From the IMG/VR virus record IMGVR_UViG_3300028045_000070: DNA of 28,629 nucleotides. One strand, 5' to 3'. Below the pieces are notes generated by a model, which ran no database searches, was not told the DNA's origin, and saw only the letters and a list, made by a program, of their open reading frames with translations. The stretch is from a virus. Below are positions 6,218-28,279 of this stretch, in pieces. Position numbers and translations under genes: made by a program. Each line of letters opens with the position of its first letter. Positions within the stretch are counted from its first letter, which is position 1.

Positions 6218-6245
6218 ACTATAGCATTTGCCAAAAACCTGTCAA
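6218..6245 (-). promoter_or_regulatory. sigma70-type promoter (TTGACAGG, N16, TATAGT) for the 5393-6187/AAA+ operon
   Basis: The minus strand reads TTGACAGGTTTTTGGCAAATGCTATAGT. A leader of about 30 nt with GGGGAAAAGGA follows before the ATG. Confidence 0.55.
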
Positions 6246-6284
6246 GCGATAAGCCAGGCTGGAATCGATCACCATAAAATCTTA

Positions 6285-6312
6285 TAGACAAAATAGTATG
6301 TTTTGCTAAAAT
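6285..6312 (+). promoter_or_regulatory. plus-strand promoter (TAGACA, N16, TAAAAT) giving a leaderless transcript of the 6319 gene
   Basis: TAGACAAAATAGTATGTTTTGCTAAAAT is followed by GTCTTT and then the ATG at 6319. Confidence 0.45.
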
Positions 6313-6318
6313 GTCTTT

Positions 6319-6648
6319 ATGTATGGATTTGTAACCGATAGCCCACTATTCGATAACCCAGGTGGCTTTAATAGAGCACTAACTAATGAAGAGAGTCTTC
6401 GTTTACGAGCCTCTGCACAACAAGCAATAGAAGCAGGCCGCCCTATGACAATGGCTGAGATGTATGGAAAGCCTCAGCAGCTATTTAGGCAACTAAGTGG
6501 GTTTGATGGCCTAGAATCAGCAGCAGGCAGCGCAGTTGTGGGAATTATTCTAGGGGCTTTTCTAGCGTCTAAGTGGGGAATTAAACTTTTTCCGGTTGGT
6601 CTTATCATCGGCTATACAGTAACTAGTCAATTAGTGGAGCACATGTAA
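6319..6648 (+). CDS. small membrane protein
   Basis: 109-aa ORF with a hydrophobic C-terminus, lying in an AT-rich plus-strand mini-operon. Confidence 0.45.
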   Translation: MYGFVTDSPLFDNPGGFNRALTNEESLRLRASAQQAIEAGRPMTMAEMYGKPQQLFRQLSGFDGLESAAGSAVVGIILGAFLASKWGIKLFPVGLIIGYTVTSQLVEHM

Positions 6649-6932
6649 TGAAAAGTATCGGTTTTGGTGCCTATGATGGCTTTTTAAGTGTGAAACCTGC
6701 ATCTTTATCTTTAGGGCAGTATCGACATAATCCCCATCAAGCTCAAGCTCAAGAAACGGGGCTGAGCCTAACCTCACAAATAGTGATGGGTGCGGTTATT
6801 GCTTCACAGCTAGGCGCATACATATATAAAGAAGTGGCAGGCACTCCAGATTTTCGCTGGCACTGGTATGACACAGTCTTAATTCCGTCTTATATGCTAT
6901 TCGGAATATTCGAGATTTTTGGTAAAAAGTAA
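6648..6932 (+). CDS. small membrane protein
   Basis: 94-aa ORF whose start overlaps the upstream stop (TAATG). Confidence 0.45.
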   Translation: MKSIGFGAYDGFLSVKPASLSLGQYRHNPHQAQAQETGLSLTSQIVMGAVIASQLGAYIYKEVAGTPDFRWHWYDTVLIPSYMLFGIFEIFGKK

Positions 6933-6979
6933 AACTATCTCTCGTGTTGAGGCACGCTCATGCTATACTAGCCTTCATG

Positions 6980-7204
6980 GTAGTAGATTGTAGAAGTTGC
7001 CACAAAGAAATAGGGTATACAAAATCCATAGAAGGCCATAAAAGGCCCCTTTCATATCTCTATGATATCCCCATGCTAAGTGGGATGGCTAAAGCTGTCA
7101 ATGATGATTGGGTTGGAGTAATTTACAGTGATGAAATCTATTGCCGCCTTTGCATAAGCAGTAAACGCGTTGTTTTTGGAACTATTAATTCTCTTTTCCA
7201 GTAA
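6980..7204 (+). CDS. small Cys-rich protein (CxxC...CxxC)
   Basis: MVVDCRSCHKE...YCRLCISS. The track ORF begins at 6944 with TTG. The ATG at 6980 is preferred because it lies 7 nt after a TATACT box. Confidence 0.35.
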   Translation, partial: VVDCRSCHKEIGYTKSIEGHKRPLSYLYDIPMLSGMAKAVNDDWVGVIYSDEIYCRLCISSKRVVFGTINSLFQ

Positions 7205-7610
7205 AGGGCGAGACGTAGGACTCACTGCCTTCTGGACCTAAAACCTTCGCCACCCAATTGGTAGTTTCTATTTCCCCCGCTCGTTTGATATTACTCTGGC
7301 CTAATGTTCGGTAATAGGCTGCCTGATATATCCATTTCGCTTTGAGAAGGGTAGCTGCCTCTTCAATAGAATAGGCAACACTAGGATGCGCAAAAGGTAG
7401 CCCTTTTTGGGAAGGCTTTACGTGAAGAAAACAGGCCCCACTACTCGGAGGCCATTGCATACGTCCTTCTCTAATCCAGATTGCCTTTCCGGGAGAAAAA
7501 GACTGATTTCTAGCCTCAGAGTCAGTAAACCTGTGCTTTACAACAATGGGCACGATACTATCAAGACCAACAAAATAAGCTGTGATAGGTTCTTCAAGAG
7601 GAATTTTCAT
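7185..7610 (-). CDS. hypothetical protein
   Basis: 141-aa ORF with no motif I can name. Confidence 0.4.
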   Translation of the reverse strand: MKIPLEEPITAYFVGLDSIVPIVVKHRFTDSEARNQSFSPGKAIWIREGRMQWPPSSGACFLHVKPSQKGLPFAHPSVAYSIEEAATLLKAKWIYQAAYYRTLGQSNIKRAGEIETTNWVAKVLGPEGSESYVSPFTGKEN

Positions 7611-8031
7611 TTAGCACAATACTTTGGTTTAGCACAATCTCAACAGTTGAGATATCATCCACACAAACATCTACTACTACCCACTGTAAGTGCCCCTCAT
7701 GGGCTAGCTTTTTTCTATACAAGGTAATGAAGCTATCTTCTCCCGAGGAAAACCAAGCAGCCCGGTGGAAATCAACCCGAACGTCATTTTTAAGCGTCAT
7801 GACGTAGCTATCATGCACTGTTTTAGATCTTAATAGGAGCGGCCCCAAGTTACTAAGGTCTTCTTGGGCACGTTCGTAATCCGTGGGTTCCGGGTGGTCC
7901 TCTTCCTCTTCCTGCGGCTCATGCTTTTTGCGACCCCTGCCTTTTGTTTTAGGCTTTGGAGATGGTGCCACTGGCTCGGGTTTAGGAGGAAGAAGCGAAT
8001 TATAAAGATCGGGCGGGCTAGATTCTAACAT
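7594..8031 (-). CDS. AT-hook-like, Pro-rich N-terminus fused to an unknown C-terminal domain
   Basis: PKPEPVAPSPKPKTKGRGRKKHEPQEEEED is followed by a compact domain. Confidence 0.45.
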   Translation of the reverse strand: MLESSPPDLYNSLLPPKPEPVAPSPKPKTKGRGRKKHEPQEEEEDHPEPTDYERAQEDLSNLGPLLLRSKTVHDSYVMTLKNDVRVDFHRAAWFSSGEDSFITLYRKKLAHEGHLQWVVVDVCVDDISTVEIVLNQSIVLNENSS

Positions 8032-8043
8032 TAGGAAATCATA

Positions 8044-8691
8044 TCAGGTTTCTATATTTTTACCAGCCCCGAGTTTGATAGACCCACCATTTTTCTTTAA
8101 AGTGCCATCGCGCAACATCTCATTAAGAACAATGTTAGCTCTTACTTTTCTGACCCTTCGTAATTCTATTAGACGAGTAATTTCTTTATCTTCATTCATA
8201 AAACGGTTTAATAGTTCGTCTTTTGAAATCTTGGAGTCCCCTAAAGATTTCAAAAGAGATTCTTGTATTTTATCTTGTTCTTCTGTAATAGCTATCGGCA
8301 GCGGGTTCCATTTGCGAGTAGGATGCTCCCAATGATCCATCTCACAAGCAAAATGACGATGCTTTGTATTAGCTTTCCTAAAGCAAGGAGGCTCTAGAAT
8401 TAGCATCCATTCAGTACCTGCAGATAGCTTAGGGAAAAACTCCCTCCCCCGCTCGTAATCGCGGCTAATTACGTTATAGTTGTAAGGCTTCCCAAAAATA
8501 GATTTACCACTAAACTGCTCTTTAATGGTAGCCCAAAAACGTGATGACCAACACCAATCGCTCCCTACAATTCGATCCCCATCATAGGTATCAAAGAAGG
8601 TGACAAGACCAAACCAAGACTCTCTCCATAAAACAAAAGTTGTATAGAGGGTGGATTGCTCTTCGAAGATTATAATGTTTGTTTGGCTCAT
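8044..8691 (-). CDS. hypothetical protein (AT-rich segment)
   Basis: The ATG at 8689-8691 shares a base with the stop of the upstream MetRS-like ORF (TAATG), so the start was set at the internal Met of the track ORF. Confidence 0.45.
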   Translation of the reverse strand: MSQTNIIIFEEQSTLYTTFVLWRESWFGLVTFFDTYDGDRIVGSDWCWSSRFWATIKEQFSGKSIFGKPYNYNVISRDYERGREFFPKLSAGTEWMLILEPPCFRKANTKHRHFACEMDHWEHPTRKWNPLPIAITEEQDKIQESLLKSLGDSKISKDELLNRFMNEDKEITRLIELRRVRKVRANIVLNEMLRDGTLKKNGGSIKLGAGKNIET

Positions 8692-8990
8692 TAATTCTTC
8701 TCCAGGCGAGGGAACAGAGGCTCGCACTTAACGATTTTCTCAGCCAGAAGATTATCAAGAATCTTTTCTGCCGTTTCGGGAATTACGGGAGAAGCTAGAT
8801 TTACCAAGAAAATAACATCATTGACCAGAGTTGTTAAGACTTGCGTCAGACGCTCAGTCTCTCCCTTCTTGTAGAGTTCCCAAGGTTTTTCATCTTCGAT
8901 GGTTTTATTAGCTTGCCGAAGACGAGTCCAGATATCCTCCAAACCTTCTTTAAAGCGCAGATCGCGATATTCTTCTGGAACTCTCGACAT
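8691..8990 (-). CDS. stand-alone fragment resembling the C-terminal anticodon-binding domain of methionyl-tRNA synthetase
   Basis: KPWELYKKGETERLTQVLTTLVNDVIFLVNLASPVIPETAEKILDNL...EPLFPRLE matches the MetRS helical anticodon-binding region and its terminal PLFPR motif. The ORF is only 99 aa but has its own promoter. Confidence 0.55.
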   Translation of the reverse strand: MSRVPEEYRDLRFKEGLEDIWTRLRQANKTIEDEKPWELYKKGETERLTQVLTTLVNDVIFLVNLASPVIPETAEKILDNLLAEKIVKCEPLFPRLEKN

Positions 8991-9011
8991 CTCTCACCGC
9001 CTTCTAAGGAG

Positions 9012-9039
9012 AGCTTACCTTAAGGAGGATCCCTGTCAA
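9012..9039 (-). promoter_or_regulatory. sigma70-type promoter (TTGACAGG, N16, TAAGCT)
   Basis: The minus strand reads TTGACAGGGATCCTCCTTAAGGTAAGCT, about 20 nt upstream of the 8990 ATG. Confidence 0.5.
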
Positions 9040-9054
9040 GGGACTGTAATCTTA

Positions 9055-9441
9055 CTATTGATTTGCTGAATGCTTAGGAGCATAGAAAGTACAAAGTTCA
9101 GTCCCAGCAGATACATCCTTCAGGGCGATGAAATCTAATAATCTGTTCTGGTCCCTGCCATTGATACTATAAAAAACATTTGGTGTCTTAGAGTGGTTGA
9201 ATATTGATCCATACCCGAAAACAACTAAGGCACCCTTTGGGTTACAGTGAGATTTAAAAACATAATTCTGCAGAATATTTGATTGGTCATATATCATATC
9301 CTTGTGAACTTCAACAAAAGGACAAATCTCTAATAGTTCCCCTTTTCGGATAGAACTTTTAGCGAAAACACCATAACCCGCTCCGGGAATTTTACTTTTA
9401 CCGATTATGAGTTTTACAGGCCCCTGGTACTTAGAATACAT
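9055..9441 (-). CDS. minimal SET-domain lysine methyltransferase (vSET-like, 128 aa)
   Basis: GAGYGVFAKSSIRKGELLEICPF is the SET-N GxG motif. FNHSKTPNV is the NHSxxPN motif. AGTELCTFY supplies the catalytic Tyr region. The overall layout resembles Chlorella virus vSET. Confidence 0.7.
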   Translation of the reverse strand: MYSKYQGPVKLIIGKSKIPGAGYGVFAKSSIRKGELLEICPFVEVHKDMIYDQSNILQNYVFKSHCNPKGALVVFGYGSIFNHSKTPNVFYSINGRDQNRLLDFIALKDVSAGTELCTFYAPKHSANQ

Positions 9442-9472
9442 ATGTTTATATTACCAAATAGGCGCATCATTG

Positions 9473-10165
9473 CTAATCTTGAAAAGATCTAAAACCAAAC
9501 CTAGCTCTTAGGAAATCCACAATATCTTGAACTTTTTCTGTTTCAACATATGGCCCGATTCCCTCGTCATAAGGACTGCAAACATCTTGGTGAGGAAAGC
9601 CGTATAGCAACCCACCAAAGTCATATTGTGTTGTTTTTAGAGTAACTATGGCTTCATCCATGCCATCCCACTCAACCTCTGTGTCGTATTCCGACCCTTT
9701 AACATAATTGTCAATTTCTGTTTGTTTTTCTATGTCTGATTCCTCTATCCAAGGAGGATGATCATCCTCGAAAAAATACCTTTTTACTACAACAGGGGCC
9801 ACGCTAAACATAAATTCCCATTGAGTGTAGCCATAAATGTCGTTAAGAAACTTTCTCGGCTTGCAGTATAAGCCAGGACCGGCTTGTATTGATAGAAAGT
9901 AGCTGCGTTGCGAGTATGGGTGTTCTATATCTTCTTGACCAAAGACCAGAGCATCAAAAGTTGGGCCGAAGTCCTTGTTCTTCTTATTCAACAAAGTTCT
10001 AAAATCTATTGGCTCCTGGTTTTGAAGCACATGCCTGGTCCCGGCATATAAGATCCTAGGTTCAACCTCAAGCCCCCTTCTTCTGCAGTAAATAAAGGCA
10101 CGGCTGCAAGCCTCTTCATCGCCTTGAAAACATTGTCTTTCCAGTTCGCGGTATTTTTCATCCAT
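9473..10165 (-). CDS. hypothetical protein
   Basis: 230-aa ORF with no recognisable motif. Confidence 0.45.
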   Translation of the reverse strand: MDEKYRELERQCFQGDEEACSRAFIYCRRRGLEVEPRILYAGTRHVLQNQEPIDFRTLLNKKNKDFGPTFDALVFGQEDIEHPYSQRSYFLSIQAGPGLYCKPRKFLNDIYGYTQWEFMFSVAPVVVKRYFFEDDHPPWIEESDIEKQTEIDNYVKGSEYDTEVEWDGMDEAIVTLKTTQYDFGGLLYGFPHQDVCSPYDEGIGPYVETEKVQDIVDFLRARFGFRSFQD

Positions 10166-10187
10166 GAACGTATTTTACCAAACCCTC

Positions 10188-10652
10188 TCAAAAATAAAGA
10201 GGAGGAATCTGGTCTACCGCCCAACAACTATCATCCAACAGATAATCAATAAAGGTTTCAGCGTCGTCAGTGCTAAAATTACTTTTCTGCCAAAACTCAT
10301 ATTTTGATCGTTCTTTGATGGGCGTTACTAGCTGACTCGGATCTAATCCAAATTGTGTGGCCGTGATATCAACGATGTAATCGCCATATTCCACATAACA
10401 GTGCCCACTAAGGTCTTCATCATCTAACCAAACAACAAGCTGGGGCTTGAACCGCTCATCCGCCATATTGAGCACAACCGCATTATTGAGCATGTGGAAA
10501 ACTTTCATCGCCCCATATGCACATAATCCGGTCATACTACTATAACCACCAACCTCTTCTTTATACAGTTCTAGCGACACCCGCGCTTTTGAGGCCACCT
10601 TTTTGATAATACTACTTGTTAGCATGAGAATCTTCTTTAACTTGGTCCCCAA
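10188..10652 (-). CDS. possible transglutaminase-like cysteine peptidase (Cys-His-Asp)
   Basis: GLCAYGAMKVF...GHCYVEYGDYIVDITATQ places the three residues in the order expected for a transglutaminase-like core. The start codon is uncertain. Confidence 0.35.
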   Translation of the reverse strand: MGTKLKKILMLTSSIIKKVASKARVSLELYKEEVGGYSSMTGLCAYGAMKVFHMLNNAVVLNMADERFKPQLVVWLDDEDLSGHCYVEYGDYIVDITATQFGLDPSQLVTPIKERSKYEFWQKSNFSTDDAETFIDYLLDDSCWAVDQIPPLYF

Positions 10653-10750
10653 TCATATGGACCCAGGGCAGCCACATAGCACTCCAGGTTCTAGATTGAA
10701 CTAGCCCCCAAACCGAATAAGAAGCCTGCTCCTCTATAGCAACCCCATGA

Positions 10751-10806
10751 ACAATAGCTATACGAACAATAGCTACATCTACATGCATAGCTACATCTAC
10801 ATGCAT
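10751..10806. repeat. short tandem direct repeats (2x18 bp agctacatctacatgcat and 2x10 bp acaatagcta)
   Basis: Read directly from the sequence in the intergenic/3'UTR space between the 10188 and 10810 genes. Confidence 0.6.
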
Positions 10807-10809
10807 CAA

Positions 10810-11094
10810 TTACTGCCCATGAATCTTCAAAATCTCTTCGAGAATTAGCTTAGGGGTAACGCGGAACTCATATTCTTCCCAATCAAATGGGTAGCCAAAC
10901 TCCTCTGCAAAACCCTCCTCGCTGATACCAGTAAGGTCTTCTGGTGTTCGCGTGTAAGTTGTCTTGTGATCCGCAGTTCTAATCATAATAGTACGGCCAC
11001 GAAACTCCCAAGACCAAACCTCTTTCTGAGAAAGATGGATCTTCCGTTTGAGGGGTTTATGTTTCGCTATCTTTTTTTGATCTCGCTGTTTCAT
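10810..11094 (-). CDS. hypothetical protein
   Basis: The internal ATG (MKQRDQKK) overlaps the stop of an upstream 43-aa ORF (ATGA). Confidence 0.4.
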   Translation of the reverse strand: MKQRDQKKIAKHKPLKRKIHLSQKEVWSWEFRGRTIMIRTADHKTTYTRTPEDLTGISEEGFAEEFGYPFDWEEYEFRVTPKLILEEILKIHGQ

Positions 11095-11222
11095 GGCTTC
11101 AAACACCTTACTTGGCCGCAGTTGACACATTTATACGTGTCATTCCACTTGTCTCCTGAGACGAAGACATAAGTAGTTTCCTTTTTACACACGGTGCAGT
11201 TACGTTCGATTGTTCTGCTCAT
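11091..11222 (-). CDS. 43-aa zinc-ribbon ORF
   Basis: Manual translation gives MSRTIERNCTVCKKETTYVFVSGDKWNDTYKCVNCGQVRCLKP, coupled to the next gene. Confidence 0.35.
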   Translation of the reverse strand: MSRTIERNCTVCKKETTYVFVSGDKWNDTYKCVNCGQVRCLKP

Positions 11223-11961: not shown

Positions 11962-12324
11962 TTAGCGATGGCGACGACGAGGCGTAGTGCGACGACGAGG
12001 CGTAATCACGCGATAACGAGGCGTAACCACACGACTACGACGAGCGCCCCGACGACGATGACGTGGGCGGTAGATGGGACGTGGGCGATAGATAGGCCGA
12101 CGCGGGCGATAGATAGGCCGACGTGCGCGGGGGCGCTGCGTCCGGTAACGGGGCGTGCAAATTCGCTGTGGGTAGCAGAACTTTACACGACGTGCAACAC
12201 GCACATAAGTTCTACCGCAACGCTGGTAGCTATAAACCACACGGGTTCCACAAGCCTCAGCAGTCGAGGTAAAAGTTGTCAAACTCAGCACAACGGCTGC
12301 CAAAAACGCAAAAATAGTTTTCAT
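11962..12324 (-). CDS. secreted Cys-containing protein with Pro/Arg-rich PIYRPR tandem repeats
   Basis: The signal peptide is MKTIFAFLAAVVLSLTTFTSTAEA. GGAG lies 8 nt upstream of the ATG. The mature part contains RRPIYRPRRPIYRPRPIYRPRHRRR, and the opposite-strand ORF is a shadow. Confidence 0.55.
   Translation of the reverse strand: MKTIFAFLAAVVLSLTTFTSTAEACGTRVVYSYQRCGRTYVRVARRVKFCYPQRICTPRYRTQRPRARRPIYRPRRPIYRPRPIYRPRHRRRGARRSRVVTPRYRVITPRRRTTPRRRHR
12062..12124. repeat. roughly 3x21 bp tandem repeat (gggcgatagataggccgacg) encoding the PIYRPR repeats
   Basis: Read directly from the sequence. Confidence 0.6.
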
Positions 12325-12373
12325 TTAGAAATCTCCAGTTCTAAACCCAGTAGAACATAGTCAGATCGCTCTG

Positions 12374-12514
12374 TCAAGAGCCCGCTGTATCTTTGATAGC
12401 TTTTACTATCAAATAAACTCCCAGCCAAAAGTTGGCTAGCGTAAAAATACCAAATCCACTCCAAAAGAGGAAGTAAACACAGTCTTTGCTGATGCCAAGA
12501 TCCGCTAGTCCCAT
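12374..12514 (-). CDS. 46-aa putative membrane peptide
   Basis: Manual translation gives MGLADLGISKDCVYFLFWSGFGIFTLANFWLGVYLIVKAIKDTAGS. Its TGA stop lies inside the TTGACA box of the downstream promoter. Confidence 0.25.
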   Translation of the reverse strand: MGLADLGISKDCVYFLFWSGFGIFTLANFWLGVYLIVKAIKDTAGS

Positions 12515-13029: not shown

Positions 13030-13232
13030 GCTAACCTCGTGGTAGATGTAGGTGTAGATGTAGATAATGCGTCATTGATAATGCAGGATAGGTCGGGAAG
13101 AGGTTTATTGCACTCTTCACAAGGTTGGTTGCACTCTGTCCAATGATAGCTATGTTCGTCGTAACGATATGGTGCTCCGCAGGGGCATTTGTAGTCATAA
13201 CAGTAGCAGCTATGCGGATTGCAGGGGAGCAC
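13026..13232 (-). CDS. small Cys-rich protein
   Basis: Nine Cys in 68 aa, including CPCG and CEEC. Confidence 0.35.
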   Translation of the reverse strand: MLPCNPHSCYCYDYKCPCGAPYRYDEHSYHWTECNQPCEECNKPLPDLSCIINDALSTSTPTSTTRLA

Positions 13233-14137: not shown

Positions 14138-15211
14138 CTAAGCACCAAAGTAGTGCAGCACAAAGTACCAACCAGCCATATCTACAGCAGCAAACAAAGC
14201 CACTACTGCCAGACCAATCTTAACCTTGCTGCTAGGGTTCGACACCTTAGCCCAGGCCCTCTTCACAAGACCAGGACTCTTGGTAGTCAGCATAGCAACA
14301 TTCAAGTGGGTTTTTTCTCCAGAAGGAGACTCTACCTGCCAAACATTTGCTGAAACCTTAGCAAGCAGAATGTAAGATGCACTCTTGAAGACGTGGTAAA
14401 CCTTCATTCCAGCGATAAACGACTGTTGGGCAATCTCTACACGGGCCTTACCCGGAGCAACCTCTTCCGCAGCATCTTGGTAGTGGGTTGAGACGACAGC
14501 CTCAAGGACGTTTTTAGCTGTAAGCAATTTCGGTGTATCTGGCTCGTTCATAACTGGTTCCTTAATCTCTGTCTTACCCATTGTAGTGGCGGGGTCTACG
14601 CCGAAGAATGATGTGCCATACTTGTCGAAGTAGGTTCCCTCTGCAAGATTTCCAGGTGGCTTCCCGCTGGCAAATGCGGCAGAATAAGATGCCTTCCCGG
14701 TGGCAAATGCGGCAGCATAGGATGCTTGCCACTCTCGACACTGGCAGCCAAAGCCCATCAACTCCTTCATAGTGCAAGAGCACAAATCAATTTCTTGACA
14801 AGGATTTGTTTGTCCCGAAGGGGCTTGAAAGTAGCCTGGCTCATAAGGCTCATATTGCTCGGTTGAGCACAATTCCGGGTGTTTTGGTTTTGCTGTTTTC
14901 ATATCAAAAGCTCCTTCGCTCGTAAACCTATCAGGATAGCCAGAAAAAATCGCATTCAACTCGCGGAACTTCTTTGCCACGATCTTTGCTTTGCACTTAT
15001 ATCCGACTTTTTCGGCGCACCCCGGATGATACCACTTATGATAATCGCCCCAATCGGAGGAGTTTGCCGGAACACCGACGCGGGTTGACTTATCCGCAAT
15101 TAGCTCCTGGCATTCTCGGCATTTGCTGGTGCCCGATTTAGCAGTCGCTACGATGAAAGCCTTCTTTTTCTTTTTCCGTTTCGTCTTTGGCATACTCGCG
15201 CTCGCGCTCAT
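14138..15211 (-). CDS. PARP-type zinc-finger (zf-PARP) protein with the paralog-family C-terminal domain and TM anchor (family member 2)
   Basis: AKSGTSKCRECQELI-x27-HKWYHPGC has the same spacing as the PARP1 nick-sensor finger (C-x2-C-x28-H-x2-C) and follows a KKKKKK stretch. The C-terminus HYQDAAEEVAPGKARVEIAQQSFIAGMKVYHVFK... ends in a TM helix. The start was set at the internal ATG 15211, which the promoter geometry makes leaderless. Confidence 0.7.
   Translation of the reverse strand: MSASASMPKTKRKKKKKAFIVATAKSGTSKCRECQELIADKSTRVGVPANSSDWGDYHKWYHPGCAEKVGYKCKAKIVAKKFRELNAIFSGYPDRFTSEGAFDMKTAKPKHPELCSTEQYEPYEPGYFQAPSGQTNPCQEIDLCSCTMKELMGFGCQCREWQASYAAAFATGKASYSAAFASGKPPGNLAEGTYFDKYGTSFFGVDPATTMGKTEIKEPVMNEPDTPKLLTAKNVLEAVVSTHYQDAAEEVAPGKARVEIAQQSFIAGMKVYHVFKSASYILLAKVSANVWQVESPSGEKTHLNVAMLTTKSPGLVKRAWAKVSNPSSKVKIGLAVVALFAAVDMAGWYFVLHYFGA
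14661..14726. repeat. 2x33 bp intragenic tandem duplication (encodes ASYAAAFATGK / ASYSAAFASGK)
   Basis: Read directly from the sequence. Confidence 0.6.
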
Positions 15212-15218: not shown

Positions 15219-15247
15219 ATTAGATCACGCAGGGCGGGATCTGTCAA
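15219..15247 (-). promoter_or_regulatory. sigma70-type promoter (TTGACAG, N17, TCTAAT) with the ATG 7 nt after the -10
   Basis: The minus strand reads TTGACAGATCCCGCCCTGCGTGATCTAATAGGAAAAATG. Confidence 0.5.
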
Positions 15248-15603: not shown

Positions 15604-16021
15604 CACAACCGTCCTGGGTCTTTTTATGAGGAGGCATACAAGTGCGGCACAAGCATTCCGCACACGCCAGGATCTTTGTATACTTTGGAGGGCTGTTTTC
15701 GTCCGTAATGCGGACCAGATTTTGGATTTCTGCTCGATCTGAGCCACAATCACAACCAGCCTCTACATCCCCAACCACAAAACTCTCTACATCCCCAACC
15801 CCAAAACTCACAGTATGCTCCTCCCAGATCCTCTTAATGGCTTTTCCACTATCTGTTTCATGGAAAAGACAAGGCTGACCAAGATGCTGATCTTTATCGT
15901 GGTCACACTCGATCTTAAACTCGTTCACAAAGGCTTGCCCCAACCTGAGATGTGGAAACCCTCCTGTATTGAATTTCTGCAAGAAAGGCCGGATCTGAGC
16001 ATAACTAACTTTGTTCTTCAT
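15596..16021 (-). CDS. hypothetical Cys-containing protein
   Basis: 141-aa ORF whose ATG lies 5 nt after a TAGGAT -10, so the transcript is leaderless. Confidence 0.45.
   Translation of the reverse strand: MKNKVSYAQIRPFLQKFNTGGFPHLRLGQAFVNEFKIECDHDKDQHLGQPCLFHETDSGKAIKRIWEEHTVSFGVGDVESFVVGDVEAGCDCGSDRAEIQNLVRITDENSPPKYTKILACAECLCRTCMPPHKKTQDGCGD
15761..15806. repeat. 2x22 bp intragenic tandem repeat (ctctacatccccaacc[a/c]caaaa)
   Basis: Read directly from the sequence. It encodes GVGDVESFVVGDVEAG. Confidence 0.55.
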
Positions 16022-16026: not shown

Positions 16027-16055
16027 ATCCTAGATCATTAGCGGATTTCTGTCAA
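16027..16055 (-). promoter_or_regulatory. sigma70-type promoter (TTGACA, N17, TAGGAT), leaderless
   Basis: The minus strand reads TTGACAGAAATCCGCTAATGATCTAGGATTAGGTATG. Confidence 0.5.
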
Positions 16056-16064
16056 GACACACAA

Positions 16065-16088
16065 GGGGGCAGAATTTCTTCTGCCCCC
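16065..16088 (-). terminator. intrinsic terminator hairpin downstream of the MVP gene
   Basis: GGGGGCAGAA, a TTTC loop and TTCTGCCCCC form a perfect 10-bp GC-rich stem placed 10 nt after the MVP stop. Confidence 0.6.
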
Positions 16089-16097
16089 CGTGGTCTA

Positions 16098-24036: not shown

Positions 24037-24936
24037 CTACTCCTCGTCGTCGTCGTCGTCAAGAAACTTGTGCGCGGCACTAGCCGTGCCAGTGTTAGCC
24101 GCCGTCTTAGTAGCCGCAGCCTTGGGCGCAGCCTTAGCTGGTGCAGGAACCTCACCCGGCTTCTCCACTACCATTTTGTCGAGCCCGAACATCACCGCAG
24201 GCGTCATTTGAGTAGCCATGCAACTTTGCAAGCACATTTGGCTCATGCTGCCAACTTCTGTGATCTCATCATTGGTGATAAGGGCACCTTCACCACGCTT
24301 CTTACCAGAGACAGGCGGGTGAGAGATAACCGGAACCGCTTGCTCAACAAAAGGATACTGGTAGAGCTTTGCAGTAAAGGCATCAGTGACTTCATTTCCT
24401 GGGATACCAGGACCAATGACCAACTCGAAGACACCATTCTTGTTTTCAGTACGCATCTGGGTCTTAAGGACTAGATAGCCTCCACGGAGAGCACTAGCGT
24501 CAAGGCCACATTTCTCTTCAAGAGCCTTAACAGCTTCCCGATAAAGCGGGCTATCCTTCGGAGTCCCACCATTGATAAACATGGCGTGCTTGGCTGGACC
24601 AAAACGCTTCCGCGTTTTACCCTTGGGCTTATCGAAGATACCACTACCATCTTCAAGCATCTTGATAGTAAGCTCGGAGCCGCGTTCGATACCAGCATCA
24701 TCAAGAGCAGTGAAAACCGCTACGATAACGTCGGAAAAACGATTCTTCTGCATAGACTTCCACATCTCTTTGATGTGTTCCCGAGTCAATCGAAGAACGG
24801 TTTCATCTGGCAGAGTGCCAGCCGCCTGTAGGGTCTTAAAGAGACGAGTTTCTCGGATCTCGGGGTCCATATACTCGTCTTCGGGCTTGTTCGGTGCCCA
24901 AGGCCCGTTGTATGCTTGTTCAGTTTGTTCGGTCAC
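24037..24936 (-). CDS. hypothetical protein with an Ala/Pro/Lys-rich linker and acidic C-terminal tail (DDDDDEE)
   Basis: 299-aa ORF with a GTG start. The tail resembles the acidic tails of single-strand-binding or nucleic-acid-associated proteins. Confidence 0.5.
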   Translation of the reverse strand: MTEQTEQAYNGPWAPNKPEDEYMDPEIRETRLFKTLQAAGTLPDETVLRLTREHIKEMWKSMQKNRFSDVIVAVFTALDDAGIERGSELTIKMLEDGSGIFDKPKGKTRKRFGPAKHAMFINGGTPKDSPLYREAVKALEEKCGLDASALRGGYLVLKTQMRTENKNGVFELVIGPGIPGNEVTDAFTAKLYQYPFVEQAVPVISHPPVSGKKRGEGALITNDEITEVGSMSQMCLQSCMATQMTPAVMFGLDKMVVEKPGEVPAPAKAAPKAAATKTAANTGTASAAHKFLDDDDDEE

Positions 24937-25007
24937 TGCTATTTCTTTCTATGGATGTTATAGCGATTGGAAGCGGTTGGCACTTGTCCCGTTGACTTCT
25001 CTGGGCA

Positions 25008-25035
25008 AGTTTACCATTTTCCCCACTCCCGTCAA
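25008..25035 (-). promoter_or_regulatory. sigma70-type promoter (TTGACGG, N16, TAAACT)
   Basis: The minus strand reads TTGACGGGAGTGGGGAAAATGGTAAACT. Confidence 0.45.
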
Positions 25036-25094
25036 TACTTATTGAAGTCGATTTGAGATTTTTTCGGGAGGCTCACAAACCCTGTAAAATGGAC

Positions 25095-25511
25095 TTAACG
25101 ATCATTCTTGGTTTGATCCTGTAATTTCTTAACATTGCTAGCAATGTCTGCTTTAACTTGTTTAATGTATTCTAGTAGAAGCTCTGCTGATCTTACAGCA
25201 ACTTTATCTTCGGAAGAAAGAGCGAAGCTGAAGAAATCTGCTGTACTTTTCTTAGACTTTACTTGCGACTCAAGACCCTCAAGATTTTTTAGTAACAGCT
25301 TATAGGCTTCTACTTCTTTTAGAAGTGTCACACGTTCTTCGGCTGTTAGCAACTTTGGTGCAGGCTGCTCCTCGCCGCCACCAGAATCCCCACCATTATC
25401 AGATTTATTATCTTTCTGGCGAAATTCTAATGTAGGATTATCCGTAAGGGGCTTTGGTGTTGTACCACACCCACACAATAGAAAACCCAGAAGCAAAGAA
25501 AGAAGTTTCAT
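25095..25511 (-). CDS. putative lipoprotein
   Basis: MKLLSLLLGFLLCGCG looks like a signal peptide with a lipobox-like Cys. A low-complexity GGDSGGGEE segment and a coiled coil follow. Confidence 0.5.
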   Translation of the reverse strand: MKLLSLLLGFLLCGCGTTPKPLTDNPTLEFRQKDNKSDNGGDSGGGEEQPAPKLLTAEERVTLLKEVEAYKLLLKNLEGLESQVKSKKSTADFFSFALSSEDKVAVRSAELLLEYIKQVKADIASNVKKLQDQTKNDR

Positions 25512-25519
25512 CTTACACC

Positions 25520-25756
25520 TTATCTAAGCGGGCACCAATCAGGAATTTTCGAGGGCTCCTCACTGGGGCGCTCAACGTAAGCAATATCACTAGAAATAGG
25601 TAATCGCTCACATCTATCTGTTGTTCCCGATTTAGGACGATCAGTTTTAGAGCAAAACCACTTGACAACATGCTCCCAACTATCAGCAGTATAGAAACGC
25701 TCTGTTTCTAGGTGCGGGCAGTCTTTGCATGTTTCAATTTTGAGATTAACACTCAT
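25520..25756 (-). CDS. small zinc-binding protein
   Basis: CKDCPH...C...C...C over 78 aa. Confidence 0.4.
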   Translation of the reverse strand: MSVNLKIETCKDCPHLETERFYTADSWEHVVKWFCSKTDRPKSGTTDRCERLPISSDIAYVERPSEEPSKIPDWCPLR

Positions 25757-25770
25757 GGATCAATCCCGGC

Positions 25771-26025
25771 TTAGGCAACCCAAGCCGCAGTGAGGATCTT
25801 CACATCCTTACCACAGAACTTGTCGATAGTGCTCTGGCCTTTACATCTACCAGAAGCCACTCCGGCATCAGCACAGAATGATTCGTAGGTTCCACTATAA
25901 GGACGAAGAGTGTTATCACCCCCGTAATCGGGATCTGACCAAACCCAACGCTGGCCCTCATCGGATTCCAGCAAAAAGTGCTCGCTCCAGAACCAAGTAA
26001 CTCGGACTCGGACATCAGTCAACAT
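25771..26025 (-). CDS. hypothetical protein
   Basis: The ATG at 26025 (MLTDVRV) is preferred over the TTG start of the track ORF. A TTGACAG, N17, TTAAAT promoter at about 26102-26131 fits. Confidence 0.35.
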   Translation of the reverse strand: MLTDVRVRVTWFWSEHFLLESDEGQRWVWSDPDYGGDNTLRPYSGTYESFCADAGVASGRCKGQSTIDKFCGKDVKILTAAWVA

Positions 26026-26342
26026 TTTTCTAAACCTTTTCTCCACTCGTTTAAGAAACAATCTTGGAAGTTGGCTCCGTGCGCCCTTCCTCTTTGTGTT
26101 AGCGCCATTTAATCATGGCGGGTGATTTCTGTCAAGGTAAGCGGCTGACCTCCCGTGGGAGCACCGCCTCCAATGCCCATGACAGTAGCATACACCCTAC
26201 CTAGCTGTCAATGGATGCAGTTTCCAGTTTCTCAACCATAGAAGGAATCTCAGCTAGCAAGCGAGAAAGACGACCGCAGTTATCCTTCCAATCAGCAGCA
26301 TCCCTCCAAGTTTCTGCGTCAGCAGCTAGTTTTAGCATTTCT

Positions 26343-26392
26343 TAGTATGTCATTGAACCAGAATCCTTGGTATGTCATTGAACCAGAATCCT
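26343..26392. repeat. 2x25 bp tandem direct repeat (t[a/g]gtatgtcattgaaccagaatcct)
   Basis: Read directly from the sequence. The second copy supplies the last codons and the stop of the 26375-26752 gene. Confidence 0.6.
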
Positions 26393-26752
26393 ATCATCTC
26401 TGACACGCAAACACGCATGGCAGGTCACTCCGATGTTTTCTACATAATCTGGGACGCAACCGCACCTCCAGATAAGCCCTGTCTCGTAAGCCCGCTCAAT
26501 GCCCGTCTCTCGGCAACCATCTTCATTACAGTAAGCAAAGCGTTCTGATTGTCCATCATAGACGGCACCAAGCCAGCAATGCGTCCCACCCTCGTTGACG
26601 TGTTCACTGGGGTTTCCGCAAAAGATGCAAGCCCAAGGCAATCTATCAGCACTATAATCAGGGCAATCTCCCTGGTCCTGAAACACAATAGCTCGATCTT
26701 GTAAGGTATAGTGCGGTTTAGGCACTCTAGGCATGTTGACTCCGGGGCTCAT
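26375..26752 (-). CDS. Cys-rich protein
   Basis: 125-aa ORF containing CIFCGN, CNEDGC, CGC and CHAC motifs. It is leaderless, with the ATG 6 nt after the -10. Confidence 0.45.
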   Translation of the reverse strand: MSPGVNMPRVPKPHYTLQDRAIVFQDQGDCPDYSADRLPWACIFCGNPSEHVNEGGTHCWLGAVYDGQSERFAYCNEDGCRETGIERAYETGLIWRCGCVPDYVENIGVTCHACLRVRDDRILVQ

Positions 26753-26758
26753 GTTGCT

Positions 26759-26787
26759 ATGCTAGCCTTTATGGCTCTTTCCGTCAA
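26759..26787 (-). promoter_or_regulatory. sigma70-type promoter (TTGACGG, N17, TAGCAT), leaderless
   Basis: The minus strand reads TTGACGGAAAGAGCCATAAAGGCTAGCATAGCAACATG. Confidence 0.5.
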
Positions 26788-26788
26788 G

Positions 26789-28105
26789 TTATAGGGGCAG
26801 AGCCAGACCATAAGCGGAGATATATACACAAGCAGCTATAAAAGCCCCAATCAATCCAATAGCGGTAGACATACTAGCTGCTCGGTTACCTTTTCGGGTC
26901 GCATCGCGTGCAAAACCTTTTGCTTTATGTGCAACATTGTTAGTAAGGCCCCACAACATTATACAGAAAGCAGTAAATGCTGCTCCAACCTTGTTGGTAG
27001 TCCCTCCAAGCCACGCACCAGTCTTATTAAGGAAACTAGGGCTGGTAGTTCGTAGCACCGCAGGATGCAGCCGCCCTATGCGCTGACCATCTGGTCTTTC
27101 TGCAATCCAATTACCAGAGCGTGACTCTTCCACCAGCATATAAGGTTGGTGGCTGAAAACATGCCAGACGAGCATACCCGGAGCTAGTGCCGCCAGGTTT
27201 GTCTCTACACGAGCCTTGGTAAGAGCAACCTCTTGCGCCGCCCCTGCGTATTCATCACTAACAGCAATCTGTAGAACGTCTGAGCAGGATAGTTTCTCTT
27301 GTTTCTCTTGCTCCTGCCTCAACTTAGCCTCTAACAGCCTATTCGATGCCTCCAGATGCCCTTGCTGCCACAACTTGTCTTCCAGCAGCAGGTTTTCTGC
27401 ATGTAGTTTCTTATTCTCATCTCTAAGAACAGTCTGCGAATCCCGCATAGTAATCAAGGTCTTGTGGAGATCCTTAAGATCCAGTTCCAGCTTATCCTGT
27501 TTAGGAGAACCAACAGCCTCCGCACTCGCTCCGAAAGTAATACAGTGATCAATAGGGGCTGAGGTAATACGCGCAGATTGGGCCGATAACGACCTACCTG
27601 AGTGGCCCTTCGCCAGGATCCGAGACCCTGTGATATACCCATAAGTAGGGTTACGATTCCAGTTGTCATATGTTCCAGATTTAGGCTTAGTGCTTGCTAG
27701 TCTGATCCACTCTGTAGGAACCCAAGCACAAGTAGCGTTATCATCAGGTTTAGGGCTGCCCTTTAGGTGCCAACCATTGATTTTATCTAGCAGTGGCGCA
27801 ACACCCATTTTCTTATGGGCCTGTAGGTGAAAAATCTTGGTGCCCAAGCTGTTAACCCACTTTATCCAGCGATCCGAAAATTCGGAATAAGGTTCTGGTA
27901 GTGTACTAGGAACAGTAATATAGACTTTATCCCCAGAACTGAATACTGGACCATCAAGCTGCCTGCAAAAACGGCACTTGCCCTCACCATTACAAGGAAT
28001 AACACCAGCAGTGTGATTTTTCATATGAGCCTTCCAGCGTTGACGTGATCGACGCGAGGCATCCTTGTAAGGGCCGACTTTGTGGGGTGCGTATTGGTTC
28101 ATCAC
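26789..28105 (-). CDS. coiled-coil protein with the paralog-family C-terminal domain and TM anchor (family member 3)
   Basis: The C-terminus DEYAGAAQEVALTKARVETNLAALAPGMLVWHVFSHQPYMLVEESRSGNW is followed by a TM helix. The N-terminus carries a Cys/His cluster (HMKNHTAGVIPCNGEGKCRFC) and a coiled coil. GAGGTAG lies upstream of the ATG. Confidence 0.55.
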   Translation of the reverse strand: MMNQYAPHKVGPYKDASRRSRQRWKAHMKNHTAGVIPCNGEGKCRFCRQLDGPVFSSGDKVYITVPSTLPEPYSEFSDRWIKWVNSLGTKIFHLQAHKKMGVAPLLDKINGWHLKGSPKPDDNATCAWVPTEWIRLASTKPKSGTYDNWNRNPTYGYITGSRILAKGHSGRSLSAQSARITSAPIDHCITFGASAEAVGSPKQDKLELDLKDLHKTLITMRDSQTVLRDENKKLHAENLLLEDKLWQQGHLEASNRLLEAKLRQEQEKQEKLSCSDVLQIAVSDEYAGAAQEVALTKARVETNLAALAPGMLVWHVFSHQPYMLVEESRSGNWIAERPDGQRIGRLHPAVLRTTSPSFLNKTGAWLGGTTNKVGAAFTAFCIMLWGLTNNVAHKAKGFARDATRKGNRAASMSTAIGLIGAFIAACVYISAYGLALPL

Positions 28106-28122
28106 TACCTCAAGTGTATTAC

Positions 28123-28172
28123 GAAAATACCCCTAACGCAGCAAGATGGCCGCACGAGTTAGGGGTATTTTC
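28123..28172 (-). promoter_or_regulatory. perfect 15-bp inverted repeat (terminator/attenuator-like) in the 5' leader of the 26789-28105 gene
   Basis: GAAAATACCCCTAAC, a 20-nt loop and GTTAGGGGTATTTTC. The GC core CCCCTAAC/GTTAGGGG is flanked by T-tracts on both strands. Confidence 0.5.
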
Positions 28173-28251
28173 CGCGTTAGCCATTAGCCCAGAATCTCAA
28201 CAGTTTCCTGTTGCAGAGCCGCTGCATATAACGCTTGTCTTTGTTGCCCAA

Positions 28252-28279
28252 ATTGTATCAGGACTTGTTTTCCTGTCAA
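28252..28279 (-). promoter_or_regulatory. sigma70-type promoter (TTGACAGG, N16, TACAAT)
   Basis: The minus strand reads TTGACAGGAAAACAAGTCCTGATACAAT. Confidence 0.55.

What the first reader, a model, noticed from the sequence alone, without database searches (positions are those of the whole stretch)
6218..28279. Extended -35 TTGACAGG promoters and frequent leaderless starts
At least ten minus-strand transcription units are preceded by TTGACA[G/C]G, a 16-17 bp spacer and a TAnnnT -10 (TATAGT, TCTAAT, TAGGAT, TACAAT twice, TATACT, TAGAAT, TAAACT, TAGCAT, TAAGCT). In five cases the start codon lies only 5-7 nt after the -10, which predicts leaderless mRNAs without a Shine-Dalgarno sequence (15211, 16021, 26752, 6319 on the plus strand, and 6980). 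Several TTGACA boxes overlap the stop codon of the preceding small ORF. Near-consensus -35 boxes repeated at almost every unit resemble phage early/middle promoter sets more than ordinary chromosomal promoters. The conserved GG after TTGACA might be a factor-recognition feature.
Basis: seen in the sequence. Interest (0 to 1): 0.55.

Follow-up and report, generated by a model that had tools for sequence, protein, structure and literature searches.

The report
Strong host-type promoters in giant phage
A stretch of a very large, uncultured phage-like genome carries an unusually uniform set of strong bacterial promoters, several placed so close to the start codon that the mRNA would have no leader; the feature is real and tidy, but it is a known way for phages to use the host's RNA polymerase.

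Summary
Exact TTGACA[G/C]G occurs only 5 times; the conserved unit is TTGACAG. On the gene strand of 48 kb of the parent contig, 19 of the 20 intergenic TTGACA boxes have a TAnnnT-type -10 box at 16-18 bp, and none of the 8 coding ones do. Unbiased k-mer analysis ranks TTGACAG first among intergenic-enriched 7-mers (17 intergenic vs 4 coding, p=3e-12). The leaderless-type geometry is significant (9/51 starts vs 2.7% background). Four of the five named cases have this geometry (26752 and 15211 have alternative ATGs 18 nt downstream); "6980" fails. Stop-codon overlap holds for one unannotated ORF. The window lies on 318-600 kb contigs related to Xanthomonas jumbo phage XacN1, which has the same promoter architecture. 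Best reading: promoters for the host primary-sigma RNA polymerase, with some leaderless mRNAs. This is a new member of a known kind, with modest interest.

The parts
28252..28279 (-). Promoter: TTGACAGG, 16-bp spacer, TGA-TACAAT. It is followed by a 149-nt 5' UTR before the 437-aa gene (ATG 28102).
   Evidence: the UTR contains a terminator-like hairpin
26759..26787 (-). Promoter: TTGACGG, 17-bp spacer, TAGCAT. ATG 26752 lies 6 nt after the -10 box (leaderless geometry). Alternative start: ATG 26734 with a GGAG Shine-Dalgarno sequence.
26182..26211 (-). Weaker promoter: TTGACAG, 18-bp spacer, TGC-TACTGT. It is in tandem with the next promoter, and no ORF follows directly.
26107..26135 (-). Promoter: TTGACAG, 17-bp spacer, TGA-TTAAAT, 81 nt upstream of ATG 26025.
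25008..25035 (-). Promoter: TTGACGGG, 16-bp spacer, TGG-TAAACT, 71 nt upstream of GTG 24936.
23921..23949 (-). Promoter: TTGACAG, 17-bp spacer, TAGAAT, 50 nt upstream of ATG 23870. A strong hairpin (around 23994-24011) precedes it.
21680..21707 (-). Promoter: TTGACAGG, 16-bp spacer, TGG-TATACT, 52 nt upstream of the SNF2 helicase gene (ATG 21627).
18043..18070 (-). Promoter: TTGACAGG, 16-bp spacer, TGG-TACAAT. The -35 and -10 boxes are conserved in relative L008 while the spacer has diverged.
17949..18035 (-). SAM-I-clan riboswitch-like 5' element. It begins 8 nt after the -10 box of the 18070 promoter and lies upstream of the MVP-like gene.
   Evidence: 27.7 bits; gathering score 44.4 not reached
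16027..16055 (-). Promoter: TTGACAG, 17-bp spacer, TAGGAT. ATG 16021 lies 5 nt after the -10 box (leaderless geometry). The promoter sits directly after terminator hairpin 16064-16089.
15219..15247 (-). Promoter: TTGACAG, 17-bp spacer, TGA-TCTAAT. ATG 15211 lies 7 nt after the -10 box. Alternative start: ATG 15193, which has no Shine-Dalgarno sequence.
12349..12377 (-). Promoter: TTGACAG, 17-bp spacer, TGT-TCTACT, 24 nt upstream of ATG 12324, which has a GGAG Shine-Dalgarno sequence. A hairpin at 12421-12439 precedes it.
9012..9039 (-). Promoter: TTGACAGG, 16-bp spacer, TAAGCT, 21 nt upstream of ATG 8990.
7073..7101 (-). Promoter: TTGACAG, 17-bp spacer, TAGCAT. It drives a short transcript with a 26-codon hydrophobic ORF (7055-6975), antisense to a doubtful plus-strand ORF (6944-7204).
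6218..6245 (-). Promoter: TTGACAGG, 16-bp spacer, TGC-TATAGT, 30 nt upstream of ATG 6187. It is one half of a divergent promoter pair.
6285..6312 (+). Promoter: TAGACA, 16-bp spacer, TGC-TAAAAT. ATG 6319 lies 6 nt after the -10 box (leaderless geometry). The start is forced: an in-frame stop lies 12 nt upstream and there is no alternative start.
5353..5381 (-). Promoter: TTGACAA, 17-bp spacer, TGC-TCTAAT, 40 nt upstream of the AAA ATPase gene (ATG 5312).
905..933 (-). Promoter: TTGACAG, 17-bp spacer, TGT-TATATT. ATG 895 lies 9 nt after the -10 box (leader of about 3 nt).
10172..10180 (-). Extended -10 box only (TGG-TAAAAT). ATG 10165 lies 6 nt downstream; the start is forced and has no Shine-Dalgarno sequence.
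9448..9456 (-). Extended -10 box only (TGG-TAATAT). ATG 9441 (SET-domain gene) lies 6 nt downstream; the start is forced.
8038..8046 (-). Extended -10 box only (TGA-TATGAT). ATG 8031 lies 6 nt downstream.
7616..7643 (-). Promoter: TTGAGA, 16-bp spacer, TATTGT. ATG 7610 lies 5 nt downstream. The promoter lies inside the 3' end of the upstream gene.
13116..13144 (+). Weak promoter: TTCACA, 17-bp spacer, TCCAAT. ATG 13152 lies 7 nt downstream (minor-strand gene).
18126..18131 (+). TAATAT -10 box, 7 nt before ATG 18139 (minor-strand gene). The best -35 box is TTGGGT at 17 bp.
19551..19582 (.). Bidirectional intrinsic terminator with a 14-bp stem, between the SNF2 gene and the next unit. An extended -10 box (TGT-TATACT) follows it.
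16064..16089 (-). Intrinsic terminator with an 11-bp G+C-rich stem, immediately upstream of promoter 16055.

Best explanation
The window is part of a long, one-strand array of mostly small genes from a very large (318 to about 600 kb), uncultured jumbo-phage-like genome. About 17 sites in the window, and 20 perfect-TTGACA sites in 48 kb, are promoters for a bacterial primary-sigma (sigma70/SigA-type) RNA polymerase holoenzyme, most likely the host's. Their consensus is c/a-TTGACA-G, a 16-17 bp spacer, usually a TGn extended -10 box, TAnaaT, and an A start 7 nt later. They split the array into many short units, several of them bounded by intrinsic terminators. In a subset, the -10 box lies 5-7 nt before an ATG, so transcription would begin at or next to the A of the start codon and give a leaderless mRNA translated without a Shine-Dalgarno sequence. 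A second class has the extended -10 box alone, without a -35 box. Shown here: the motif, its statistics, its placement and orientation, one phylogenetic footprint, and the same architecture in a cultured relative. Inferred: which polymerase and sigma factor act on these sites, the actual transcription start sites, expression timing, and leaderless translation.
For: Exact TTGACA-N16-18-TAnnnT occurs 10 times on the minus strand and 0 on the plus strand, against 0.37 expected; 0 of 300 shuffles reach 10. Unbiased k-mer ranking of intergenic vs coding sequence puts TTGACA, TTGACAG and CTTGACAG on top. TTGACAG on the gene strand: 17 intergenic and 4 coding, with 12.9% of the sequence intergenic (p=2.6e-12); the opposite strand shows no enrichment. 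Nineteen of the 20 intergenic TTGACA boxes have a -10 box at 16-18 bp, and none of the 8 coding ones do; spacer sequences are unrelated, so these are not repeats. Independent promoter features appear at the expected positions: TGn in 13/20 (p=3e-11), A at the 7th nt after the -10 box in 14/20 (p=8e-5), and T/A/T at -12/-11/-7. Footprint: relative L008 (82% identity in the MVP-like protein) keeps TTGACAGG and the -10 box upstream of that gene while the spacer has diverged, and conservation resumes at a riboswitch-like RNA starting 8 nt after the -10 box. Terminator hairpins lie directly upstream of several sites. Leaderless geometry: TAnnnT peaks 5-6 nt before annotated starts (9/51 vs 2.7% at other ATGs, p=8e-6). 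All candidates start with ATG, most have no Shine-Dalgarno sequence, and four have forced starts. Context: contigs of 318 and about 600 kb; a neighbouring 693-aa protein is 50% identical over its full length to proteins of Xanthomonas jumbo phages XacN1 and Xoo-sp13. XacN1 has a similar gene array with PARP and about 10 perfect TTGACA-N16-18-TAnnnT sites in 42 kb. Jumbo phages lacking their own RNA polymerase are thought to use the host enzyme (PMC7824862). A -10 box adjacent to an ORF giving leaderless mRNA has been validated experimentally in Deinococcus-Thermus (PMC12340547).
Against: There are no transcript data. The host is unknown, so 'host primary sigma' is an inference. Only 48 kb of at least 318 kb was visible, so a phage-encoded sigma factor or RNA polymerase elsewhere cannot be excluded. 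Three sites have C instead of the near-invariant A at -11 (TCTAAT or TCTACT), which would weaken an E. coli-type promoter. Two more distant relatives (L006, L005) lack the motif. Some leaderless calls are ambiguous: 26752 and 15211 each have a second ATG 18 nt downstream. The extended -10-only boxes before 10165, 9441 and 8031 lie in very short intergenic gaps, where read-through plus translational coupling is an alternative.
Confidence: 0.8

Rival explanations
1. The invariant heptamer TTGACAG marks a phage-specific promoter class. It would be read by a phage-encoded sigma70-family factor, or by host sigma modified or assisted by a phage factor that contacts the G at -29.
For: G follows TTGACA in 18/20 sites (p=3e-9). 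The uniformity of the -35 box exceeds that of the T5 and SPO1 early regions. Many jumbo phages without an RNA polymerase encode sigma factors (PMC7824862). Only 48 kb of at least 318 kb was examined.
Against: Every element matches the full primary-sigma consensus (-35 box, 16-17 bp spacer, TGn, -10 box, A at +1), which needs no extra factor. The second G merely tracks 16-bp spacers. XacN1 has the same architecture with A at that position. No sigma or anti-sigma domain was found among the genes of the 48 kb (precomputed Pfam hits). A literature search found no natural TTGACAG class.
Confidence: 0.1
2. The -10-like boxes next to start codons do not give leaderless mRNAs. Those genes would be translated from longer polycistronic transcripts or from downstream start codons, and the boxes would be internal or secondary promoters or AT-rich junctions.
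For: 26752 has a second ATG 18 nt downstream with a GGAG Shine-Dalgarno sequence, which the gene callers chose. 15211 has a second ATG 18 nt downstream. The boxes before 10165, 9441, 8031 and 7610 lie in gaps of 0-31 nt after the previous gene, or inside it, so read-through is plausible. About 35% of genes do have a Shine-Dalgarno-like core.
Against: The sharp positional peak at 5-6 nt (p=8e-6). Candidates use ATG exclusively. Forced starts with no Shine-Dalgarno sequence at 6319, 9441, 10165 and 895. Full -35/-10 promoters sit directly in front of 16021, 15211 and 6319, preceded by a terminator or a divergent promoter. L008 and XacN1 show the same geometry.
Confidence: 0.3
3. The motif is a dispersed repeat or a regulator-binding site (operator), not a promoter.
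For: An 8-11 nt block (tCyC-TTGACAG) recurs in intergenic DNA.
Against: There is no similarity outside the two hexamers and TGn; spacers and flanks are unrelated. The fixed 16-17 bp spacing to TAnnnT, the strict orientation with the genes and the A at +1 are promoter properties. No palindromic partner was seen.
Confidence: 0.03

Closest known systems
Near-consensus sigma70-type promoter sites in the accessory-gene arrays of Xanthomonas jumbo phage XacN1 (385 kb)
   Same: One-strand arrays of small ORFs that include PARP, a thioesterase and an ATPase. ORF396 is 50% identical over its full length to the 693-aa protein next to the window. About 10 perfect TTGACA-N16/17-TAnnnT sites lie in 42 kb, mostly just upstream of genes, and at least one has TATAAT-N7-ATG leaderless geometry.
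   Different: In XacN1 the base after the -35 box is mostly A, not G. Shine-Dalgarno sequences (AGGA/GAGGA) are much more regular. There is little synteny and the genomes are distant. The XacN1 sites are likewise only sequence predictions, made here.
Host-RNA-polymerase early promoter sets of large lytic phages (T5 pre-early/early region; SPO1 host-takeover module)
   Same: Many closely spaced strong promoters interleaved with terminators and tRNAs, subdividing arrays of small genes. In T5, roughly 35 promoters are annotated in 50 kb. The SPO1 module consists of many short units.
   Different: The -35 boxes here are far more uniform: perfect TTGACA plus TAnnnT occurs at 0.33/kb, against 0.10/kb (T5) and 0.14/kb (SPO1). 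Leaderless geometry is common here. Expression timing is unknown.
Leaderless gene expression from a -10 box adjacent to the ORF (Deinococcus-Thermus, Actinobacteria; phage examples such as lambda cI from PRM)
   Same: TAnnnT lies a few nt upstream of an ATG, there is no Shine-Dalgarno sequence, and a -35 box is optional but boosts strength (PMC12340547). About 15% of genes here show this geometry.
   Different: GC content (46%) and the strong -35 and TGn usage do not fit those host phyla, and the host is unknown. From my memory, and not verified here: Thermus phage phiYS40 pairs -35/-10 early promoters with extended -10, leaderless middle and late transcripts. That would be the closest functional analogue.

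Membership tests
Sigma70/SigA-type -35/-10 promoters | A TTGACA-like -35 hexamer and a TAnnnT -10 hexamer separated by 17 +/- 1 bp | tested here: met
   19 of the 20 intergenic TTGACA boxes in 48 kb have a -10 box at 16-18 bp; 10 observed against 0.37 expected in the window
Sigma70/SigA-type -35/-10 promoters | Located upstream of genes and oriented with them | tested here: met
   TTGACAG: 17 intergenic and 4 coding on the gene strand (p=2.6e-12), with no enrichment on the other strand
Sigma70/SigA-type -35/-10 promoters | A purine initiating nucleotide about 7 nt after the -10 box | tested here: met
   A at the 7th nt in 14/20 sites (p=8e-5)
Sigma70/SigA-type -35/-10 promoters | Transcription actually initiates there with primary-sigma holoenzyme | not testable with these tools
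   No transcript or biochemical data are available. Indirect support: a conserved RNA element starts 8 nt after the -10 box of the 18070 promoter.
Extended -10 (TGn) promoters | TG at -15/-14, one base upstream of the -10 hexamer | tested here: met
   13/20 class-I sites (p=3e-11), plus four boxes without a -35 box at 10165, 9441, 8031 and 6319+
Leaderless mRNAs | A -10 box 5-8 nt upstream of the start codon, so that the transcription start site falls on or next to the A of AUG | tested here: met
   Positional peak of 9/51 vs 2.7% background (p=8e-6). About 13 of 84 genes in 48 kb show the geometry.
Leaderless mRNAs | An AUG start codon and no Shine-Dalgarno sequence | tested here: met
   All candidates start with ATG, and most have no GGAG/GAGG/AGGA upstream
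Leaderless mRNAs | A mapped 5' end at the start codon, and translation without a leader | not testable with these tools
   Requires 5'-end mapping and reporter or proteomic data
Phage early (host-RNA-polymerase) promoter sets | Carried by a phage genome | tested here: inconclusive
   Contigs of 318 and about 600 kb; PHROG hits at 1e-139 and 3e-169; 50% identity to a XacN1 protein; a tRNA; a small-ORF array. No structural genes were seen in the 48 kb available. No megablast match to phages or plasmids.
Phage early (host-RNA-polymerase) promoter sets | Expressed early in infection | not testable with these tools
   No expression data
SAM-I riboswitch (RF00162), side finding at 17949-18035 | Reaches the Rfam gathering score | tested here: not met
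   27.7, 29.8 and 36.1 bits in three lineages against 44.4 required; P4 is reduced to 1-2 nt
SAM-I riboswitch (RF00162), side finding at 17949-18035 | Conserved core and helices supported by covariation | tested here: inconclusive
   The full-length model aligns. P2 and P3 are conserved, with 3 compensatory pairs, but only 4 sequences were available.

The most novel reading that the evidence does not exclude
The near-invariant TTGACAG heptamer, combined with widespread leaderless starts, reflects a dedicated takeover programme of a phage of at least 318 kb. In this reading, a phage factor (a sigma factor or a sigma-region-4 partner) reads the extended -35 box, and infection shifts translation toward leaderless mRNAs. 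This would make the promoters a phage-specific regulon rather than ordinary host-type promoters.
Probability: 0.1. Interest if true: 0.55.

Novelty: new member of a known kind. Interest (0 to 1): 0.3.

Why it matters
Transcription signals of huge uncultured phages are almost unstudied. This work gives a clean, statistically solid promoter catalogue for 48 kb of one such genome. The catalogue implies dependence on a primary-sigma RNA polymerase and predicts many short, insulated units. It also flags start codons that standard gene callers placed wrongly; for example, they picked the TTG of a -35 box as a start codon. The promoter model could be used to re-annotate this lineage, to guide host prediction, and as a source of strong, compact promoter and leaderless expression parts. 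It does not reveal a new mechanism.

Tried and rejected
- Chance was rejected by dinucleotide shuffles and an intergenic-vs-coding test.
- A repeat or operator reading was rejected because spacers and flanks are unrelated.
- Searches for diverged syntenic relatives to use for footprinting:
  - IMG/VR with the MVP-like, SNF2 and AAA proteins gave one 65% relative and nothing else useful.
  - The metagenome scan with SNF2 gave only hits at 23-28% identity.
  - The zf-PARP protein matched only itself among 5.8 billion proteins.
  - Only L008 gave a usable footprint.
- Relatives L006 and L005 lack the motif.
- Host inference failed:
  - Sample accessions are not in the literature library.
  - A genome scan for the riboswitch variant gave 0 hits, then 3 unrelated hits, only one of which (a Traorella MAG) is the same RNA.
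- A literature search for a natural 'TTGACAG' extended -35 class returned mainly the synthetic J23119 promoter.
- I considered an alphaproteobacterial CTTGAC-N17-CTATAT-type consensus (from memory) because the AAA ATPase's best hits are Rhizobium and Rhodobacter phages. There is no consistent C before the -10 box, so I did not adopt it.
- An archaeal promoter reading was rejected because the geometry is bacterial (a -10 box 6 nt before the start codon).

Full report
**1. Checking the observation**

Exact TTGACA[G/C]G occurs only five times, all on the minus strand: 6245, 9039, 18070, 21707 and 28279.

- TTGACA occurs 21 times on the minus strand (7.7 expected).
- TTGACAG occurs 16 times (2.1 expected).
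- The full pattern TTGACA-N16-18-TAnnnT occurs 10 times on the minus strand and never on the plus strand (0.37 expected). None of 300 dinucleotide-preserving shuffles reaches 10.
- Nine of those ten sites lie in the 11.5% of the window that is non-coding.

Two of them (TAAACT at 25008 and one TAGCAT at 26759) follow TTGACG rather than TTGACA.

**2. Genomic context**

The window is identical to part of a 318,241-bp ENA contig, and its proteins also occur on a 599,739-bp JGI contig. I assembled 47,964 bp of the parent contig from three overlapping fetches. In that stretch, 79 of 86 genes lie on one strand, and most are small with no known family.

Recognisable genes include:
- an AAA ATPase (phrog_8638, 1e-139);
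- an SNF2 helicase;
- a PARP-type zinc finger, a PARP catalytic domain and a WGR domain;
- a SET domain;
- RtcB;
- a Major-Vault-Protein-like protein;
- a tRNA-Thr.

There is no megablast match to known phages or plasmids. However, a 693-aa protein just upstream of the window is 50% identical over its full length to proteins of the Xanthomonas jumbo phages XacN1 (385 kb) and Xoo-sp13 (309 kb). The matching XacN1 region is a similar one-strand array with a PARP, a thioesterase and an ATPase. The element is therefore most likely a jumbo or huge phage. No structural genes were visible, so this remains an inference.

**3. What the motif is**

An unbiased comparison of k-mers in intergenic versus coding sequence on the gene strand ranks TTGACA, TTGACAG and CTTGACAG first: 20 vs 8, 17 vs 4 and 10 vs 0. 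For TTGACAG the binomial p is 2.6e-12, given 12.9% intergenic sequence. The opposite strand shows no enrichment.

Of the 20 intergenic TTGACA boxes, 19 have a TAnnnT (or TCTAaT) hexamer 16-18 bp downstream. The exception sits 37 bp upstream of another site. None of the 8 coding boxes has one. Spacers and flanks share no similarity, so these are not repeats.

Aligning the 20 sites gives further conserved positions:

| Feature | Count | p |
|---|---|---|
| G after the -35 box | 18/20 | 3e-9 |
| C or A before the -35 box | 18/20 | C alone 11/20, p=8e-4 |
| TGn extended -10 | 13/20 | 3e-11 |
| T at -12 | 20/20 | 2.5e-12 |
| A at -11 | 16/20 | 1.4e-6 |
| T at -7 | 20/20 | 2.5e-12 |
| A at the 7th nt after the -10 box (canonical +1) | 14/20 | 8e-5 |

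They were not used to select the sites, so they count as independent support.

**4. Phylogenetic footprint**

Relative L008 (82% protein identity in the MVP-like gene, GC 42%) has TTGACAGG-N17-TATTAT upstream of that gene. The window has TTGACAGG-N16-TACAAT. The spacer has diverged, and conservation resumes a few nucleotides after the -10 box in a structured RNA.

That RNA aligns full-length to the SAM-I riboswitch model in three lineages, at 27.7, 29.8 and 36.1 bits. This is below the gathering score of 44.4, and P4 is nearly absent. P2 and P3 are retained, with three compensatory pairs. Its 5' end at 18035 lies 8 nt after the -10 box, which ends at 18043. That is where the promoter predicts the transcript to start.

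More distant relatives (L006 at 71% and L005 at 65%) lack the promoter motif.

**5. Architecture**

Several promoters sit directly after strong hairpins or intrinsic terminators: 16064-16089 before 16055, 12421-12439 before 12377, a hairpin near 24000 before 23949, and a bidirectional terminator at 19551-19582. The distance from the -10 box to the next start codon ranges from 5 to more than 300 nt.

The density of perfect TTGACA-N16-18-TAnnnT compares as follows:

| Sequence | Density (per kb) |
|---|---|
| This element (48 kb) | 0.33 |
| E. coli chromosome (50-kb sample) | 0 |
| T5, first 50 kb (roughly 35 annotated promoters) | 0.10 |
| SPO1 host-takeover module | 0.14 |
| XacN1 (42 kb, 10 sites) | about 0.24 |

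In XacN1 the base after the -35 box is mostly A.

**6. Leaderless starts**

At 51 annotated starts in the window, TAnnnT peaks 5-6 nt upstream of the start codon. This applies to 9 starts, against 2.7% of other ATGs (p=8e-6).

- The case at 6980 does not. After the TAGCAT box at 7078-7073, the first ATG is 7055, 17 nt downstream. It opens a 26-codon hydrophobic ORF.
Three more lie in the flanks.

All candidates begin with ATG. The starts at 6319, 9441, 10165 and 895 are forced, because an in-frame stop lies just upstream and no alternative start follows. Both 26752 and 15211 have a second ATG 18 nt downstream; the one after 26752 has a GGAG Shine-Dalgarno sequence. Only about 35% of genes have a Shine-Dalgarno-like 4-mer, against 12% background.

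A -10 box adjacent to the ORF producing leaderless mRNA is an experimentally validated expression mode in Deinococcus-Thermus (PMC12340547).

**7. Other claims**

Overlap of TTGACA with a preceding stop codon holds only for 12377, where an unannotated 46-codon ORF ends in the box's TGA. Annotated upstream genes end at least 8 nt before the box.

The 'factor-recognition GG' idea is not needed. The sites already match the complete primary-sigma consensus, and XacN1 differs at that position. No natural TTGACAG class was found in the literature; hits were mainly the synthetic J23119 promoter.

**8. Interpretation**

The best explanation (confidence about 0.8) is a dense set of strong primary-sigma (sigma70/SigA-type) promoters. 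They drive many short, partly terminator-insulated units of a jumbo-phage-like genome that relies on the host RNA polymerase. This fits the view that jumbo phages without their own polymerase recruit the host enzyme and often carry ADP-ribosyltransferases or PARPs (PMC7824862). A subset of units (about 15% of genes) is probably expressed as leaderless mRNA (confidence about 0.6-0.7).

Rivals, in order of weight:
- the -10-like boxes next to start codons do not give leaderless mRNAs (about 0.3);
- a phage-specific sigma factor or partner reads the G (about 0.1);
- the motif is a repeat or operator (about 0.03).

The host remains unknown. Features point in different directions: strong -35 and TGn boxes and a SAM-I-type RNA, versus low Shine-Dalgarno use and leaderless starts. 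The XacN1 link is the only lead to a cultured relative.

**9. Verdict**

It is a new member of a known kind: host-type promoter sets of large phages, plus leaderless expression. Interest is modest. The unusual uniformity of the -35 heptamer and the unexplained G at -29 are the only mildly surprising aspects.

Noticed in passing
window 16098-17855 (-), with 14138-15211 (-), 21773-22522 (-) and 1529-2257 (-): A Major-Vault-Protein-like gene (Vault repeats plus shoulder domain, 1e-25) lies within about 20 kb of a PARP-type zinc finger, a PARP catalytic domain and a WGR-domain gene, with RtcB about 10 kb beyond the window. This echoes the eukaryotic vault (MVP plus PARP4). Homologues at 40-82% identity occur on many metagenomic contigs and in DPANN, CPR and Asgard MAGs. 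Phage MVPs have already been reported (bioRxiv 10.1101/2023.11.10.566534).
   Followed up: partly
window 17949-18035 (-); L008 3827-3916; L005 4610-4699: A SAM-I-clan riboswitch-like element with almost no P4 lies in the 5' UTR of the MVP-like gene. It is conserved in three lineages (27.7-36.1 bits; gathering score 44.4) and has three compensatory pairs. In the window a hairpin follows it at 17914-17954. The same variant precedes a gene in a Traorella MAG (L023).
   Followed up: partly
window 22870-22942 (-): tRNA-Thr (anticodon TGT, 63 bits) embedded in the gene array, directly upstream of ORF 22512-22868.
   Followed up: no
window 6975-7055 (-), vs 6944-7204 (+): A strong promoter (7101) drives a 26-codon hydrophobic ORF (MKGAFYGLLWILYTLFLCGNFYNLLP). 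It is antisense to an 86-aa GTG-start ORF called by the gene finders and converges on the plus-strand operon 6319-6932. This could be a small membrane peptide or an antisense RNA; the plus-strand ORF may be spurious.
   Followed up: partly
window 28120-28175 (-): The 149-nt 5' UTR between promoter 28279 and the 437-aa gene contains a long terminator-like hairpin (AAAAUACCCCUAAC...GUUAGGGGUAUUUU). The whole UTR folds at -53.5 kcal/mol (z=-4.0). This may be an attenuator, or a terminator placed downstream of the promoter.
   Followed up: partly
window 26107-26211 (-): Two tandem TTGACAG promoters lie 76 bp apart, with no ORF behind the first. The interval folds into a G+C-rich hairpin, so this may be a small RNA or a dual-promoter arrangement.
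   Followed up: no
window 26341-26392; also 11971-12129, 14660-14725, 15761-15809, 10769-10806: Short tandem direct repeats with periods of 18-33 bp and 2-3.5 copies. The one at 26341-26392 (25 bp, 2.1 copies) lies just upstream of the 45-aa ORF 26201-26338. Two 21-bp arrays lie inside ORF 11962-12324.
   Followed up: no
window 15247 and 5381 (-): Automatic ORF and gene calling took the TTG of the -35 box (TTGACA) as a start codon: the ENA call for the zf-PARP gene (369 aa) and the longest-ORF call for the AAA ATPase (538 aa). This is a systematic annotation artefact to expect in this lineage.
   Followed up: yes
window 15219-15224, 12349-12354 and 5353-5358 (-): Three otherwise consensus promoters have TCTAAT or TCTACT as the -10 box. 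That puts C at the normally invariant A(-11), and each is preceded by TGn. This is unexplained; they may be weak or regulated variants.
   Followed up: no
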